A stretch of DNA of 49,102 bases from Armatimonadota bacterium. Its GTDB lineage: Bacteria > Armatimonadota > Fimbriimonadia > Fimbriimonadales > Fimbriimonadaceae. The position numbers were made by a program, and so were the translations under genes. The notes below the pieces were generated by a model. That model saw nothing but the letters and a program-made list of their open reading frames with translations, ran no database searches and was not told where the DNA came from. The DNA lies in contig JANNQV010000054.1 of NCBI GenBank assembly GCA_031400935.1, forward strand, positions 1 to 49,102. The letters run 5' to 3'. Each line of letters starts with the position of its first letter. Positions within the stretch are counted from its first letter, which is position 1. Positions 4,283 to 49,102 of the stretch are shown here, in pieces.

Positions 4283-5293
4283 TTAGAGATCGGCAACTAT
4301 ACTTTGAACGAATTTCTCAGCAATTTGCCCAATTAGCGGGTCAGATTGTACTTTCTCTGAGAACCTTGTCGCAAACACGTATGCCTTTGACTGCTCAATA
4401 CGAAAGAACTTCGCAACGTCAGCTTCTCCTAAAAGTGCGACCTTGAGCATTACATAGATGGCAAGGTCAAAAGGCACAACATTTCCCCATTCAGAAGGTT
4501 GAAGTTGCTTTGCCTTTTCAGCAATGTGCTCCCGTAGGTCCCATCCAGAATTCGCGCTAAAGAACGGATTAAGAATCCCACAAGCTTGCAATGCTGATTC
4601 CGGACTTTTCCAATCCGATTGCGCGAGCCGAAGCCGTTTAATGGCGCCGAGCATATTGCGCCCATTGCCTTCTAGCCTGGATGCCAAAATCCTTTCGAGC
4701 GTTGCCGAAAGCTCCACGCATTCCCTTCTGCCAAGTTGTCCAAGAATTCTTTGGCGTTCCTCACCTGGTGCAGCCTTGATCGTTGCTACGACCCATTCGC
4801 GAGAATTCGGCAATGCATGCCGAATAGCTCGTGTAACTTTTGAATCTGTAAAGCTAAGCAATGTGGGCCTTCCGCCCTTTAGCCTTCGTTCGAGCATGAT
4901 TTGAAATTGGTTTCGAGTTCGGGATTTCTGGATTAACTCTTGTGCATTATCTAAAATCAGGGTTCCGTTCGTGACTCGAGTTCTATTGTTTGCGACCCAG
5001 TCTTGGGCAGAAATAACTTGCACGAGGCCACGATCTCTGTCGCGACTCATTTGGTCTGCCGCCGCTAACAATAAATGGCTCTTGCCCCACCCACTCGGAC
5101 CAATTATCGCGACGAAGGGATTGATTCCGCTCGAAAAACGAATAGCGGACTCCACTGCACGAATATTTGAGGGTACTACTCCAAAATTAGCGAAGTCCTT
5201 TTCAGCAAATGAAAACAAGATGTCCGACATTCTCGGACGAATTGCAATCGGCTGAATGGGATAATTTAGAGTTGCGCTCGAACTTCGATCCAT
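4283..5293 (-). CDS. Short DnaA/Hda-like AAA+ ATPase
   Basis: FANFGVVPSN..A motif; Walker A GPSGWGKSHLL; LILDNAQ; sensor GNGRNMLGAIKRL; no DnaA domains I/II. Confidence 0.7.
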   Translation of the reverse strand: MDRSSSATLNYPIQPIAIRPRMSDILFSFAEKDFANFGVVPSNIRAVESAIRFSSGINPFVAIIGPSGWGKSHLLLAAADQMSRDRDRGLVQVISAQDWVANNRTRVTNGTLILDNAQELIQKSRTRNQFQIMLERRLKGGRPTLLSFTDSKVTRAIRHALPNSREWVVATIKAAPGEERQRILGQLGRRECVELSATLERILASRLEGNGRNMLGAIKRLRLAQSDWKSPESALQACGILNPFFSANSGWDLREHIAEKAKQLQPSEWGNVVPFDLAIYVMLKVALLGEADVAKFFRIEQSKAYVFATRFSEKVQSDPLIGQIAEKFVQSIVADL

Positions 5294-46380: not shown

Positions 46381-46456
46381 TATCCTGTACTCACAAATAT
46401 CCGATCTCCACTCTCGTCTCTCCGCTCTATCTCCGCCGGTAGTGTCCTAATTTGAT

Positions 46457-47083
46457 TTATGGTGGCGGATCGTACTCTGTAGGTCGTGTCGCCCAAACAG
46501 CACCGTCAGGCCCAAGGACTTGCTCTGGCATCACGCAAGCTTCGATATGATTCCAGTTCAATGTAATAGCCCGTGAACAGGCAGCAAAGTTCTTCTTGCT
46601 GGGTCGCTTGGTGGGTGGCGCGACCGTCACTAGTTCGATATTTGGGAATTCCGCCGAGCACATCCTGAACGCAGGCGACAAATCAGAGTCACTGCTAATC
46701 ACGTAAGCGACATCCATCCGCGCGTATCGCGCATCGTTGAGAAGATGGATTGCGAGGTTGACGTCGCTCTCTTTTTCCTCGTTCCCTGTGAAGGTCTTTT
46801 TGCAAAGCTTGCACCGCACAGGCTTCGCTTTGAATTCGCCCTTCACACATTCGCAACCCGTGGCCTCCCAGGCACGAAGTACTCGACGATGCCGAACCAT
46901 CGACGCAGGAAGGTGAGTTGCAAGAGCTGTGAAAACCTTGACGCTAACAAGCTGCTCGCCGGAGCGTGGGAGCAGCATCGTTGCTAGGTCCCAGTAAGAC
47001 ATCCATTTCAAATGCGGTCTTTGATGTCGCGCGATAGGATGATAGACATTGAATCCGTCAATATAAAAGGCGGCTCGTTTCAC
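46457..47083 (-). CDS. NYN (PIN-fold, LabA/DUF88-like) ribonuclease
   Basis: FYIDGFNVYH, EEKESDVNLA, ISSDSDL; inserted CKLC pair; GTG start 47083 after AAAGGTGG. Confidence 0.88.
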   Translation of the reverse strand: MKRAAFYIDGFNVYHPIARHQRPHLKWMSYWDLATMLLPRSGEQLVSVKVFTALATHLPASMVRHRRVLRAWEATGCECVKGEFKAKPVRCKLCKKTFTGNEEKESDVNLAIHLLNDARYARMDVAYVISSDSDLSPAFRMCSAEFPNIELVTVAPPTKRPSKKNFAACSRAITLNWNHIEACVMPEQVLGPDGAVWATRPTEYDPPP

Positions 47084-47097
47084 CGGGCCACCTTTTT

Positions 47098-47158
47098 TGA
47101 GAAAGAGCCCAGAGGTCTGCCCCTGGGGGGCCACAAGTAAACCTGTGGCGTGTTCTCA
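47098..47158 (-). ncRNA. Putative structured RNA leader upstream of the NYN gene
   Basis: Two 8-bp hairpins (47108-47127, 47130-47149) enclosed by TGAGAA/TTCTCA; both stem mismatches are G-U only on the minus strand. Confidence 0.5.
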
Positions 47159-47225
47159 GTACATATTATGACGCATAAATGTGCCTTTTGTATACTAGTT
47201 TTCAGAAAATTGGGTTCAATTAGGT

Positions 47226-48056
47226 TCAACATTGCACCGCATCCAGTAGGTCCGAAACGGTCCATGGTTGGTAAACGACACCCGCCGCAACCGCTGGAGT
47301 CGTCTTAATCGTTCCATGGATTCGGCAAAGATTGTAATGTGCGAAGTGAAGCGCGGTTGCCGCTTGCAGATTTTCGAGCTTCTTTGAGAAGCAAAGCGAG
47401 AGTCGCGTCAACCTTTTCATGTGCGTTCGCATAGTCAAATTAGAACGCTCTATGTAGCTTGTGCTGAAATACGCTTTTTGGTCGTGGTTGCCATGAATCG
47501 TCTTACGGTCAATGGCAGACACCCTTGGAGGGGCGTAGCGGCCTGGTCCAATCGGCTCTGCTTCGTACGACTTTACAACTTGTCCGAAATCCAGGTCGCC
47601 ATTGAATGCATACCAAGCGGCATCAATATATGGACCCCATGCATCGGCTGAAAGCTGAATTCGGTTTTCAAGGCGACTCGCTAAATCCTTCATGAATTCC
47701 TGAGTCGAAGCAATGTTTCGTTTGCCGATAAGAAAAGATGGGATTAGTTTGGTTGCCTCGTCAATCGCAACAAAGATGTAGAAGTCGCCCATTCGGGTCA
47801 CATCGTCTTCGCTGGTTAAGTGCCCTTGCTTCTTTTGAACGAAACTCCAAATCTCATCAACTTGAATTCGCTTGCAATCGAGCCCACGCATTTCCTCGTC
47901 CATGAGTTTCGCGCAACCTTCGCCGACTCTGACCATGTACCGCATGATCGAATCGCGGTGAACGTCGACGATTCTTTCGGTAGCTCGAATGCTCGTCCCA
48001 TCGACAAGACATTTGATGATCGCTTCCTGCTTTTCACGCTTTAGGATGTTACCCAT
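47226..48056 (-). CDS. IS1-family DDE transposase (HTH + catalytic domain, no N-terminal Zn finger)
   Basis: GTSIRATERI HTH; QVDEIWSFV, LSAD, STSYIER.NLT.R...RLTR..FSKK, TPAVAAG. Confidence 0.88.
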   Translation of the reverse strand: MGNILKREKQEAIIKCLVDGTSIRATERIVDVHRDSIMRYMVRVGEGCAKLMDEEMRGLDCKRIQVDEIWSFVQKKQGHLTSEDDVTRMGDFYIFVAIDEATKLIPSFLIGKRNIASTQEFMKDLASRLENRIQLSADAWGPYIDAAWYAFNGDLDFGQVVKSYEAEPIGPGRYAPPRVSAIDRKTIHGNHDQKAYFSTSYIERSNLTMRTHMKRLTRLSLCFSKKLENLQAATALHFAHYNLCRIHGTIKTTPAVAAGVVYQPWTVSDLLDAVQC

Positions 48057-48101
48057 ATCAATAGTATATCACATTTCTATCAAGATATGGAAAAGATATG
48101 G

Positions 48102-48127
48102 TTGACACGATAAAATTGTGGTATTAT
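48102..48127 (+). promoter_or_regulatory. Probable sigma70-type promoter for the tRNA-like gene
   Basis: TTGACA at 48102-48107 and extended -10 TGgTATTAT at 48119-48127 (spacing is a short 14 nt). Confidence 0.5.
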
Positions 48128-48146
48128 TTCGTCAGTTCGGAAAAAC

Positions 48147-48242
48147 GGAGTGGGAGCCGTTCGCTGGTGCGATTAATGGGCTTTACATCCAAAGGCCGCG
48201 TGCTGATACCACGTAGGGGTTCAATTCCCACCCACTCCGCCA
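48147..48242 (+). tRNA. Non-canonical tRNA-Sec-like (allo-tRNA-type, 8/4) gene, anticodon UUA (ochre)
   Basis: Acceptor GGAGTGGG/CCCACTCC + G-CCA; D-arm TCGC-TGGT-GCGA; anticodon arm TGGG-CTTTACA-TCCA; long variable arm GCGTG/CACGT; T-arm GGG-TTCAATT-CCC. Confidence 0.75.
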
Positions 48243-48301
48243 GTTAATCCGAACTCAATTATACCATCGGTTCAAAATGGACCAAAATGGAGGTAGACCA
48301 A

Positions 48302-49102
48302 ATGGCAGATAATACAGAAACAATCGAGAATCAGGCGGATAAGAAAAAGAGGCACCGAAGTCCCCCATACCCTTCCGCGAGCCTCCCGGAGGCTGTCGGC
48401 TTCGCCAATACATACTATCAAGCGCAACGAAGAAATACCGTCTACCTTGAGGCCGCAATGAAGTCTCTAGGGTACAAGCCGGACAGTAGCGGCGGTTTCA
48501 GAGCTATTGCTGCAATGATTGCTTTTGGCTTGCTGGAGGATGAAGGTTCTGGCAAAACAAGAAAGGTGAAATTAAGCGATCTTGGGTATAAGTTGATGGT
48601 TCTACCAGACGGTGACCCTGACCGGATTCCACTATATCAGGAAGCCGCAAGAAAACCAACCATCTACACTGAGTTGCTAAAACAATGGGCAGATGGATTG
48701 CCCTCCGACGATGCGATTTCGAAGTACTTGATTCTGGAACGCAACTTCAACCCGGCTTCCGTTTCTCCGTTGCTAACTGATTTTCGTAGGACTTTAGAAT
48801 TCTCGAAGTTGACTTCTGCTGGTATTATATCAGAAGAGCTAGAAGACAACGGCGGGAAACCAGACGGCAGGAAAAACACCGGCCAAGATGGAAAACGTCA
48901 CTCAACTGGCGATGGAGAAACTATCATGACTTCATTGGTCATACCTATTCGTGAAGGAGTGGAGGCTGAATTCCGATTTCCTGCAAACTTGAATAAAGAC
49001 GAGTTCGGCGATATGAAAGACTATATCGACACTTTCCTAAAGGTTCAGGAACGAAAGATCAGTCGAACTCCCGCGCAAACAAACCCACAAGCAGAGGATT
49101 TA
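48302..49102 (+). CDS. Uncharacterised protein, possibly winged-helix; 3'-truncated by the window end
   Basis: GGAGGT SD then ATG 48302; 267 codons open to the end (MADNTETIENQADKKKRHRSPPYPSASLPEAV...AFGLLEDEG...); absent from the ORF track because it has no stop. Confidence 0.8.
   Translation, partial: MADNTETIENQADKKKRHRSPPYPSASLPEAVGFANTYYQAQRRNTVYLEAAMKSLGYKPDSSGGFRAIAAMIAFGLLEDEGSGKTRKVKLSDLGYKLMVLPDGDPDRIPLYQEAARKPTIYTELLKQWADGLPSDDAISKYLILERNFNPASVSPLLTDFRRTLEFSKLTSAGIISEELEDNGGKPDGRKNTGQDGKRHSTGDGETIMTSLVIPIREGVEAEFRFPANLNKDEFGDMKDYIDTFLKVQERKISRTPAQTNPQAEDL

What the first reader, a model, noticed from the sequence alone, without database searches (positions are those of the whole stretch)
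46438..49102. Candidate system: IS1-like transposon carrying NYN RNase + structured RNA + allo-tRNA + unknown protein
Seen: putative terminus, then NYN(-), RNA leader, transposase(-), a divergent promoter region, tRNA-like gene(+) and an uncharacterised ORF(+). Established: IS1-family derivatives lacking the Zn finger (ISMhu11-like) can carry passengers, and PIN/NYN-fold nucleases include RNA-cleaving toxins and defence effectors. Inference: a mobile addiction or anti-phage module in which the tRNA-like RNA is a decoy, antitoxin or readthrough switch. The NYN gene ends in TAA, the codon this tRNA would read, while the transposase ends in TGA. I cannot show that the passengers are functionally linked.
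Basis: partly seen in the sequence, partly recalled or inferred. Interest (0 to 1): 0.75.

Follow-up and report, generated by a model that had tools for sequence, protein, structure and literature searches.

The report
IS1-like transposon carrying an allo-tRNA
This is one complete small transposon that carries, besides its transposase, a tRNA look-alike with a stop-codon anticodon, a candidate defence RNase and two unknown proteins; these passengers look like swappable cargo, not one machine.

Summary
The window is a whole contig. Its end overlaps another contig of the same assembly by 87 nt. Across that join lie the second inverted repeat (17 of 18 matched) and a 9-bp target duplication. The element is 3,116 bp, and a same-genus genome lacks it between the same two genes.

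It holds five genes:
- an NYN RNase of the HEC-09 candidate-defence family;
- a single-ORF IS1-family transposase;
- an allo-tRNA-like gene (anticodon loop CUUUACA, G73, CCA);
- ORF274, a winged-helix protein of a large unnamed family;
- a roughly 96-aa protein just outside the window.

The "structured RNA leader" is not supported. Thirty-one related complete elements carry very different cargo, including GmrSD, methylases, PIN toxin-antitoxin pairs and STAND NTPases. NYN recurs twice without the tRNA, and the tRNA recurs four times without NYN, so a joint NYN/tRNA/ORF274 system is unlikely.

The new point is narrower. The allo-tRNA and the small protein are confined to this transposase's own clade (5 and 9 of 12 members, 0 of 46 outside it). 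Compensatory base changes support the cloverleaf. Its function is untested.

The parts
46429..46437 (.). Left copy of the 9-bp target-site duplication, ATCTCCGCC
   Evidence: The identical 9-mer directly follows the right inverted repeat on contig C34 (L001 14454-14462). The flanks are contiguous in same-genus genome G001.
46438..46455 (+). Left terminal inverted repeat (IRL), GGTAGTGTCCTAATTTGA
   Evidence: 17 of 18 positions are complementary to the right repeat at L001 14463-14480. The same or a near-identical repeat bounds related elements.
46457..47083 (-). NYN-domain RNase gene of the HEC-09 candidate-defence family. The ORF is open up to 47134; the likely start is GTG at 47083; the stop is TAA.
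   Evidence: PADLOC HEC-09: E 9.2e-42 over profile positions 2-201 of 203. Pfam NYN: 27 bits against a cutoff of 24.2. Aspartates of the IDGFN, EKxxDV and SxDSD motifs are invariant in the 3 cargo copies.
47084..47225 (-).
   Evidence: Fold z-score is -0.82. No Rfam family matches beyond a chance-level hit.
47226..48056 (-). Single-ORF IS1-family DDE transposase, 276 aa, with an N-terminal helix-turn-helix, no CxxC zinc finger and a TGA stop
   Evidence: Pfam PF03400: 39.4 bits. NCBIfam IS1: 60 bits, below its cutoff of 100. 6452 homologues were found. It is single-copy in the assembly.
48088..48116 (+). Promoter-like site upstream of the tRNA-like gene (weak evidence)
   Evidence: TGGAAA-17-TAAAAT matches 9 of 12 positions; the region's count is not above shuffles.
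48147..48242 (+). Allo-tRNA-like gene: 8-bp acceptor stem, 6-position D stem with a UGGU loop, anticodon loop CUUUACA (anticodon UUA, C37), long variable arm, 3-bp T stem, G73 and an encoded CCA
   Evidence: tRNA-Sec model: 38 bits. Homologues in L005, L089, L004 and L003. 92.5% of cells are paired and 14 of 26 pairs show compensatory change. The host's own tRNA-Ser and tRNA-Sec score only about 32 bits on model R2, against 92.9 for this gene.
48287..49102 (+). ORF274 (274 aa; the last 2 codons and the TAG stop lie on contig C34): a winged-helix protein of a large family without a Pfam model. Beyond the window on C34 lie the small-protein gene (L001 14618-14908, minus strand), the right inverted repeat (L001 14463-14480) and the right target duplication (L001 14454-14462).
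   Evidence: No Pfam, NCBIfam or PADLOC family matches. 3939 representative relatives at E<=1e-3. AlphaFold model pLDDT 86.8. Only weak winged-helix matches in the PDB, best E 0.012.

Best explanation
The stretch is the left 86% of one complete 3,116-bp IS1-family 'transporter' insertion sequence, meaning an IS that carries passenger genes between its inverted repeats. It inserted between a GH116 glycosidase gene and rpmB.

How it moves: the single-ORF DDE transposase binds the two 18-bp terminal repeats and moves everything between them as a unit, duplicating 9 bp of target.

The contents fall into two layers.

(a) A clade-typical layer.
- A ~96-100 aa alpha/beta protein found only beside this transposase clade. 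Here its start codon is ATA, where relatives have ATG.
- An allo-tRNA-like gene with the conserved anticodon loop C(U/G)UUACA.

(b) Facultative, exchangeable cargo. Here that is an NYN RNase of the HEC-09 candidate-defence family with an intact acidic active site, and the winged-helix protein ORF274. Each most likely acts on its own.

Shown: the ends, the target duplication, the empty site in a relative, the gene families, the modular cargo, and the conserved cloverleaf.

Inferred: the tRNA-like RNA is transcribed from its own promoter and processed to a tRNA-shaped RNA that seryl-tRNA synthetase could charge (long variable arm, G73). My rough odds for what it then does:
- 0.35: a weak ochre (UAA) suppressor.
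- 0.40: a non-translating tRNA mimic that benefits the element.
- 0.25: a decaying relic.
For: Transposon. An 87-nt identical overlap joins the 3' ends of C54 and C34. Across the join lie the inverted repeats (17 of 18) and a 9-bp target duplication. In same-genus G001, GH116 and rpmB lie about 130 nt apart, against 3.2 kb here. Thirty-one further complete relatives of 2,059-4,728 bp have GGTAGTG... repeats. Exact 8-bp duplications were found by script in 17 of 21 of the first set and 9 of 10 of the second.

Modular cargo. Pfam on 87 ORFs from 21 elements finds GmrSD, Mrr_N, N6_N4 methylases, P63C, PIN_10 with DUF433, NYN, nSTAND1 with HicA/B, DUF3800, FGE-sulfatase and others.

Clade-typical layer.
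- On the transposase tree of 58 rows, the window sits in a clade of 12 (support 97/93).
- The small protein is in 9 of those 12 and 0 of the other 46.
- A tenth copy lies on another contig end of L080's genome.
- Searching with the small protein itself in 401 genomes of the phylum finds 2, both beside this transposase.
- The allo-tRNA is in 5 of the 12 and 0 of the other 46.

Fold. 92.5% of cells are paired, 14 of 26 pairs show compensatory changes, and 0 of 500 shuffles reach the covariation score.

Precedent. [quoted passage not shown]
Against: - No transposition has been seen, and the element is single-copy in this assembly.
- The join rests on an 87-nt overlap, where this assembly's usual end overlap is 141 nt. 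Public contigs of the source-like samples break inside the element and show higher-depth variants.
- The cargo-independence argument rests on few cases (3 NYN-bearing elements, 5 allo-tRNA loci). These group into about 3 lineages: L003/L004 and L005/L089 are close pairs.
- The window's tRNA has one mismatch in the 12-bp acceptor/T branch (A.A or G.A). Its anticodon stem has only 4 pairs, one of them G-U. It has a pyrimidine at position 37, which from recalled knowledge is rare in decoding tRNAs.
- The small protein's ATA start may mean it is no longer made here.
- HEC-09 gave no protection against any phage tested (bioRxiv 10.1101/2024.01.29.577857, passages read).
Confidence: 0.8

Rival explanations
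1. One reading: one integrated addiction or anti-phage module. The NYN RNase is the toxin or effector. The tRNA-like RNA is its decoy, antitoxin or a readthrough switch for the NYN TAA stop.
For: All the genes lie inside one mobile unit. The NYN active-site aspartates are intact. The family is a candidate defence gene (paper passages). Allo-tRNAs are reported near toxin-antitoxin systems (PMC5389517, section 16). From recalled knowledge, some NYN/PIN nucleases process tRNA precursors.
Against: The 2 other NYN-bearing elements (L088, L133) have no allo-tRNA. The 4 other allo-tRNA loci have no NYN. HEC-09 was defined as a single-gene candidate. Readthrough of the TAA would add only 9 residues running into the inverted repeat (my reading). 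No recurrent TAA-interrupted ORF was found in the 5 allo-tRNA elements.
Confidence: 0.08
2. The small conserved protein and the allo-tRNA form a two-part protein-RNA device belonging to the transposon itself. It might control transposition, charge, modify or sequester the tRNA-like RNA, or act as a type-III-like toxin-antitoxin pair. NYN and ORF274 would be unrelated cargo.
For: All 5 allo-tRNA loci also encode the small protein. Both are confined to the same 12-member transposase clade. The small protein was found only beside this transposase (2 of 2 hits in 401 genomes). Five contig-length coincidences link its homologues with transposase homologues.
Against: The small protein occurs without the tRNA in the complete element L002, and in L006, L074 and L112, the last three incompletely seen. 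Order, spacing and orientation of the two genes differ in every lineage. The window's copy starts with ATA. The fold gives no functional lead: best VIA-align Z 6.3, and no Foldseek match at E<=0.001.
Confidence: 0.2
3. The tRNA-like gene is a captured and decaying host tRNA-Ser or tRNA-Sec fragment with no function.
For: It has a mismatch in the acceptor/T branch, a weak anticodon stem and C37. ARAGORN does not call it, and the tRNA-Sec model scores it below threshold. Mukai et al. report allo-tRNA pseudogenes.
Against: Compensatory changes occur in all five helices, and the UACA loop positions are invariant across loci from different phyla. It is not close to the host's own tRNAs: 92.9 bits against about 32 on model R2. 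G73, the T-loop and the D-loop GG are kept, and CCA is encoded in the window and in L003.
Confidence: 0.12
4. Assembly artefact: the element is a chimera of two organisms' contigs and is not a single insertion.
For: The window ends inside the element. Public contigs show branch points at about 47089-47220, 48132-48212 and 48819-48848, with 2-4x higher depth, and two joints that skip 912 and 607 nt.
Against: The two flanks are adjacent in the same-genus genome. The inverted repeats and a perfect 9-bp duplication match across the join. The ORF274 reading frame continues across it to a stop.
Confidence: 0.03

Closest known systems
IS1-family insertion sequences, single-ORF / ISMhu11-type subgroup with passenger genes (ISfinder classification; recalled, since no paper in the library holds 'ISMhu11')
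   Same: The DDE transposase matches Pfam DDE_Tnp_IS1. The terminal repeats begin GGnnnTG. Target duplications are 8-9 bp. Passenger genes lie inside the repeats.
   Different: There is no InsA/InsB frameshift and no zinc finger. The score is below the NCBIfam IS1 equivalog cutoff (60 against 100). This clade has its own conserved ~100-aa accessory protein and a tRNA-like gene.
allo-tRNAs, (8/4) and (9/3), of Mukai et al. 2017 (PMC5389517)
   Same: It is found, as theirs were, as a sub-threshold tRNA-Sec model hit. It has an 8-bp acceptor stem, a short T stem, a long D stem with a tetraloop, a long variable arm, G73 and a UUA anticodon. It is associated with a transposable element.
   Different: The anticodon loop is CUUUACA (C37), whereas the published UUA species I read have CUUUAAA or CUUAAAA. 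No anticodon loop in their table holds TTTACA: the 2 occurrences are both in variable arms. The anticodon stem has 4 pairs, not 6. The window copy has one mismatch in the 12-bp branch. The host is a freshwater-sediment assembly, and relatives include Myxococcales and alphaproteobacterial assemblies rather than Acidobacteria.
HEC-09, the NYN-domain candidate defence gene (Payne et al. 2024 preprint; PADLOC-DB)
   Same: Full-length profile match at E 9e-42, with conserved aspartates.
   Different: Here it is cargo of a transposon rather than embedded in an Hma system. A defence role is unproven even for the prototype.
Suppressor and other tRNA genes carried by phages and plasmids (recalled)
   Same: A mobile element brings its own tRNA-shaped RNA with a stop-codon anticodon.
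   Different: The vehicle is a 3-kb DDE transposon with no translation-heavy gene set of its own, so a codon-supply role is implausible.

Membership tests
IS1 family (broad, ISfinder sense) | DDE transposase of the IS1 type | tested here: met
   Pfam PF03400 scores 39.4 bits against a cutoff of 24.1, but over a short stretch (residues 196-228).
IS1 family (broad, ISfinder sense) | Terminal inverted repeats beginning GGnnnTG (feature recalled) | tested here: met
   GGTAGTG... on the left and GGTGGTG... on the right, 17 of 18 matched; the same holds in relatives.
IS1 family (broad, ISfinder sense) | Target duplication of 8-9 bp (feature recalled) | tested here: met
   9 bp here. Exact 8-bp duplications in 26 of 31 relatives by script, plus L003 by eye.
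Classical IS1 (InsA / InsAB') | Two ORFs joined by a -1 frameshift, with an N-terminal zinc finger | tested here: not met
   One 276-aa ORF with no CxxC pairs in the N-terminus. The NCBIfam IS1 equivalog scores 60 bits against a cutoff of 100. It is therefore not classical IS1 but the single-ORF subgroup.
Transporter IS (tIS) | Passenger genes between the repeats of an otherwise IS-like element | tested here: met
   Four non-transposase genes lie inside the repeats; the same holds in 31 relatives.
allo-tRNA (Mukai 2017) | 12-bp acceptor branch arranged as 8/4 or 9/3 | tested here: inconclusive
   The window has 8 + 3 Watson-Crick pairs, and the twelfth is A.A or G.A. L003 and L004 fit 8/4, L089 fits 9/3, and L005 fits either.
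allo-tRNA (Mukai 2017) | Long D stem with a tetraloop | tested here: met
   GUUCGC / UGGU / GCGAUU, with one U.U mismatch. This arm is degenerate in L003 and L004.
allo-tRNA (Mukai 2017) | Long variable arm and a G73 or U73 discriminator (serine identity) | tested here: met
   A 5-bp variable-arm stem with compensatory changes, and G73 in 5 of 5 sequences.
allo-tRNA (Mukai 2017) | Anticodon stem longer than in canonical tRNAs | tested here: not met
   Only 4 pairs hold; the two outer positions are A.A / A.A here and mismatched in all 5 sequences. I therefore call it 'allo-tRNA-like'.
allo-tRNA (Mukai 2017) | Active in translation (aminoacylated and decoding) | not testable with these tools
   No RNA run is listed for this sequence; this needs a reporter or charging assay.
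HEC-09 / NYN nuclease | Full-length match to the family profile and conserved acidic residues | tested here: met
   PADLOC PDLC04163: E 9.2e-42 over positions 2-201 of 203. Invariant D9, D107, D132 and D134 in alignment A8.
Toxin-antitoxin or multi-gene defence system formed by NYN + tRNA-like RNA + ORF274 | Components co-occur across related loci | tested here: not met
   NYN with the allo-tRNA: 1 of 3 NYN-bearing elements, which is the window itself. ORF274 with NYN: the window only.

The most novel reading that the evidence does not exclude
One clade of IS1-family transposons has made a tRNA mimic part of its own equipment. The conserved ochre-anticodon allo-tRNA (loop C-N-U-U-A-C-A) and the clade-specific ~100-aa protein would work together as a transposon-borne translational device. 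It could be a switchable stop-codon suppressor, or a decoy for tRNA-targeting nucleases. Either would stabilise the element in the host or protect its defence-rich cargo. That would give allo-tRNAs, whose natural role is unknown, a vehicle and a function.
Probability: 0.15. Interest if true: 0.8.

Novelty: new variant of a known kind. Interest (0 to 1): 0.55.

Why it matters

Here one sits in a fully delimited, apparently recent transposon insertion. Homologous copies sit in related transposons in hosts from other phyla, always together with one small unknown protein. That turns a loose association into something testable. The transposon can be cloned, moved, and assayed with or without the tRNA gene and the small protein.

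Separately, the survey shows that this low-copy IS1-like family is a carrier of defence and toxin-antitoxin genes (GmrSD, methylases, PIN pairs, a STAND NTPase, HEC-09). That is relevant to how defence genes travel on the smallest mobile elements.

I found no paper describing either point in five searches. Subscription journals and ISfinder/TnPedia pages were not searchable.

Tried and rejected
- ARAGORN on the window found no tRNA. The gene is seen only by covariance models.
- The 'structured leader' at 47084-47225 is rejected.
- Readthrough idea. With TAA read as sense, no recurrent TAA-split ORF appears in the 5 allo-tRNA elements or in L002. Open frames in these GC-rich elements are long by chance.
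- A -1 frameshift or readthrough fusing ORF274 to the small ORF was considered because the small ORF lacks ATG, GTG or TTG. It is rejected because homologues start with ATG at the position of the window's ATA, behind an AGAGGA Shine-Dalgarno-like site.
- Fold searches gave no functional lead. ORF274 has only weak winged-helix hits, best E 0.012. The small protein has nothing at E<=0.001 by Foldseek and a best VIA-align Z of 6.3.
- The protein atlas returned only unnamed clusters, with one DUF5343 lead at 0.90 that a Pfam scan at E<=10 did not reproduce.
- The PDB sequence search with NYN found nothing at E<=1.
- Model R2 on 150 other genomes of the phylum: the best 19 loci are ordinary tRNA-Sec (18) or tRNA-Ser (1), so no further allo-tRNA was found there.
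- No RNA holder is listed among public runs; there are only 2 DNA runs from one freshwater-sediment study.
- Earlier findings of this scan: nothing returned.
- An ARAGORN-only 'tRNA-Gln' in element L134 did not reach the Rfam tRNA threshold and was not counted.
Full report
WHAT IS THERE

The window is a whole contig (C54, 49,102 bp) of a 2.97-Mb, 67-contig assembly. Its last 87 nt are identical to the reverse complement of the last 87 nt of contig C34. The usual end overlap in this assembly is 141 nt, so the join needed independent support.

Joining the two contigs in a script lets ORF 48287 run on for two codons to a TAG stop. After it come a further small open frame, about 140 nt of spacer, then rpmB (Pfam Ribosomal_L28).

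A same-genus genome (G001) has the GH116 gene (84% identical protein) next to rpmB, with only about 130 nt between the two homology blocks. Here the gap is 3.2 kb. So the join is real and the region is an insertion.

ENDS OF THE ELEMENT

- The left inverted repeat, GGTAGTGTCCTAATTTGA, lies at 46438-46455.
- The right repeat, TCAAATTAGGACACCACC, lies at joined positions 49536-49553 (L001 14463-14480).
- The two are complementary at 17 of 18 positions.
- ATCTCCGCC directly flanks both ends, at 46429-46437 and joined 49554-49562.
- The element is 3,116 bp.

CONTENTS

1. NYN gene, 46457-47083(-).
- The ORF is open up to 47134, but relatives begin at the position of the GTG at 47083.
- It matches Pfam NYN and, over its full length, the PADLOC HEC-09 profile (E 9.2e-42).
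- The aspartates of its three acidic motifs are invariant among the three cargo copies.
- In the passages I read of the preprint that defined it, HEC-09 is a single NYN gene found embedded in Hma systems. It protected against none of the phages tested.

2. Transposase, 47226-48056(-), 276 aa.
- Pfam DDE_Tnp_IS1 scores above its cutoff. The NCBIfam IS1 equivalog scores below its cutoff.
- The N-terminus shows no zinc-finger cysteines.
- It is single-copy in the assembly.

3. tRNA-like gene, 48147-48242(+); see the next section.

4. ORF274.
- No library family matches.
- An exhaustive HMMER search finds 3,939 representative relatives.
- The AlphaFold model (pLDDT 86.8) has an N-terminal winged-helix-like domain, with only weak PDB matches.

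5. A small protein just outside the window (joined 49108-49398).
- Homologues (729; about 100 aa; no Pfam family) start with ATG where the window has ATA. An AGAGGA site lies 10 nt upstream.
- Its model (pLDDT 91; helix, four strands, helix) has no convincing structural relative.

The spacer between the transposase and NYN is not significantly structured (z = -0.82).

THE tRNA-LIKE GENE

ARAGORN misses it. The Rfam tRNA-Sec model gives 38 bits against a gathering score of 47. According to the paper, allo-tRNAs were discovered in just this way.

Its features are these:
- an 8-bp acceptor stem;
- a 6-position D stem with a UGGU loop;
- a 4-bp anticodon stem closing the loop CUUUACA (anticodon UUA, which reads UAA);
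- a long variable arm;
- a GGG/CCC T stem with a UUCAAUU loop;
- G73 and an encoded CCA.

A covariance model built from it finds homologues in 4 of about 110 other loci: L005, L089, L004 and L003. On their alignment:
- 92.5% of cells pair;
- 14 of 26 pairs show changes on both sides;
- no shuffle (0 of 500) reaches the covariation score;
- slid controls fall to 33-58% paired.

Two caveats apply: there are only five sequences, and the alignment was fitted to the model.

The loop is CUUUACA in three sequences, CGUUACA in one and CCGUACA in one. The twelfth pair of the acceptor/T branch fits 8/4 in L003 and L004, 9/3 in L089 and either in L005. It is a mismatch in the window.

The published table of allo-tRNAs lists UUA species with loops CUUUAAA or CUUAAAA, and none with this loop. 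The host has a full tRNA set including a normal tRNA-Sec. Its own tRNA-Ser and tRNA-Sec score about 32 bits on the five-sequence model, against 92.9 for this gene. So it is not a local duplicate.

THE ELEMENT FAMILY

Transposase-anchored scans gave 77 metagenome loci and 20 genome loci. A search of 401 genomes of the host's phylum found 14 genomes with a match, usually one copy each.

A script looking for repeat pairs around near-full-length transposase genes delimited 21 distinct further elements. It delimited 10 more in the phylum set. With the window that makes 32 elements:
- they span 2,059-4,728 bp each, 108,397 bp in all;
- exact 8-bp duplications occur in 26 of the 31 by script;
- L003 has one after a 1-nt shift, by eye;
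- L025, L083 and L124 have none;
- L044 is a contig that equals its element.

The cargo is heterogeneous and rich in defence or toxin-antitoxin families (listed under Best explanation).

tRNA(-like) genes lie inside 7 of the 32 elements:
- four are allo-tRNA-like;
- L004 adds a 7/5-type tRNA(UUA) in tandem;
- L044 has tRNA(ACU), L009 a short-arm tRNA(GCU) and L018 tRNA(ACC).

That is 8 genes, where the host's tRNA density (47 in 2.97 Mb) would predict about 1.7. All have anticodons or body types that are unusual for bacteria (my reading).

DO THE PASSENGERS BELONG TOGETHER?

- NYN: 3 of 32 elements (window, L088, L133), and only the window has the allo-tRNA.
- ORF274: besides the window, only L044 among the transposase-anchored loci. 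There it sits next to a different odd tRNA.
- Fourteen ORF274-family loci from the phylum search show no transposase of this clade, no NYN and no small protein within 1.5 kb.
- One of those 14 (L139) lies beside an IS1595-family transposase. Others lie near HerA-like ATPases, Uma2 or MazF.
- By contrast, the small protein and the allo-tRNA map to one well-supported clade of 12 transposases out of 58. The small protein is in 9 of the 12, plus a copy on another contig end of L080's genome. The allo-tRNA is in 5 of the 12, and neither occurs outside the clade.
- Among the five complete elements of the clade, 4 carry the tRNA, and L002 does not.
- The five tRNA carriers amount to about three lineages.
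- Gene order and orientation differ between lineages, so the tRNA is not a fixed part of the transposition machinery.

READING

The transposon itself is established. I rate the single "NYN + tRNA + ORF274 system" as unlikely. The best-supported picture is a transposase with a clade-specific accessory protein, a frequently retained allo-tRNA-like gene, and exchangeable defence-type cargo.

Whether the RNA suppresses UAA, mimics a tRNA for some other purpose, or is on its way out cannot be decided by sequence. Conservation of the fold and loop argues for function. C37, the weak anticodon stem and the branch mismatch argue against efficient decoding.

CAVEATS

- Public contigs of two DNA runs from one freshwater-sediment study cover the element but break at three places, where depth is 2-4 times higher.
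- Those contigs contain 59-nt records that join 47219 to 48132 (removing the transposase) and 48211 to 48819. A related, more abundant variant therefore probably coexists, which would explain why the assembly stopped inside the element.
- The sides of these joints are only 29-30 nt long, so I treat them as a lead.
- Relatives are not independent samples, and the counts are small.

Noticed in passing
window 47219/48132 and 48211/48819: Public contigs of two DNA runs hold short records that join these positions directly, skipping 912 nt (the transposase) and 607 nt (the tRNA 3' part and most of ORF274). Depths are 52-72, against 27-37 for the full element. The segments 47089-47220, 48132-48212 and 48819-49102 are 2-4x deeper and carry 5 single-base differences. 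This suggests a related deletion derivative in the same samples, and a reason for the contig break.
   Followed up: partly
L034 2659-2735(+) and L087 2495-2567(+): Rfam int-alpA RNA motifs score above gathering (44 and 42.7 bits) inside two related IS1-like elements. This is another structured RNA travelling as cargo.
   Followed up: no
L004 3702-3785 and 3790-3876: A canonical-shaped tRNA with a UUA anticodon (55 bits on the Rfam tRNA model) sits in tandem, 4 nt apart, with an allo-tRNA-like UUA gene just upstream of the transposase. It resembles the 'polycistrons of irregular tRNAs' of Mukai et al..
   Followed up: partly
window 48134-48146 and 48243-48255: A 13-nt inverted repeat (85% complementary) brackets the tRNA-like gene and would extend the acceptor helix in a precursor.
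   Followed up: no
window 47435-47449: A 15-nt stretch inside the transposase gene is 87% complementary to the left inverted repeat. It may be chance or an internal transposase-binding site.
   Followed up: no
L139 219-1295 and 1492-2493: An ORF274-family gene lies directly downstream of an IS1595-family transposase (Pfam DDE_Tnp_IS1595 and its zinc ribbon). So this unknown family is also found next to a second, related transposase family.
   Followed up: no
L074 1801 and 4431: After the right end of one element (repeat at 1801), a second left-type repeat, GGTAGTGTCCTAATTTGG, starts at 4431 on the same contig. This may be two elements close together.
   Followed up: no
L088 1670-1723(-): A guanidine-II riboswitch match (34.4 bits against a gathering score of 32) lies outside the element in a Rhodospirillaceae assembly. 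It is unrelated to the finding.
   Followed up: no
L125 4803-4887 and L087 5768-5841: Two related elements are inserted within about 100 nt of ordinary host tRNA genes: tRNA-Ser(tga), 78 nt from the left repeat of L125, and tRNA-Met, 100 nt from the right repeat of L087.
   Followed up: no
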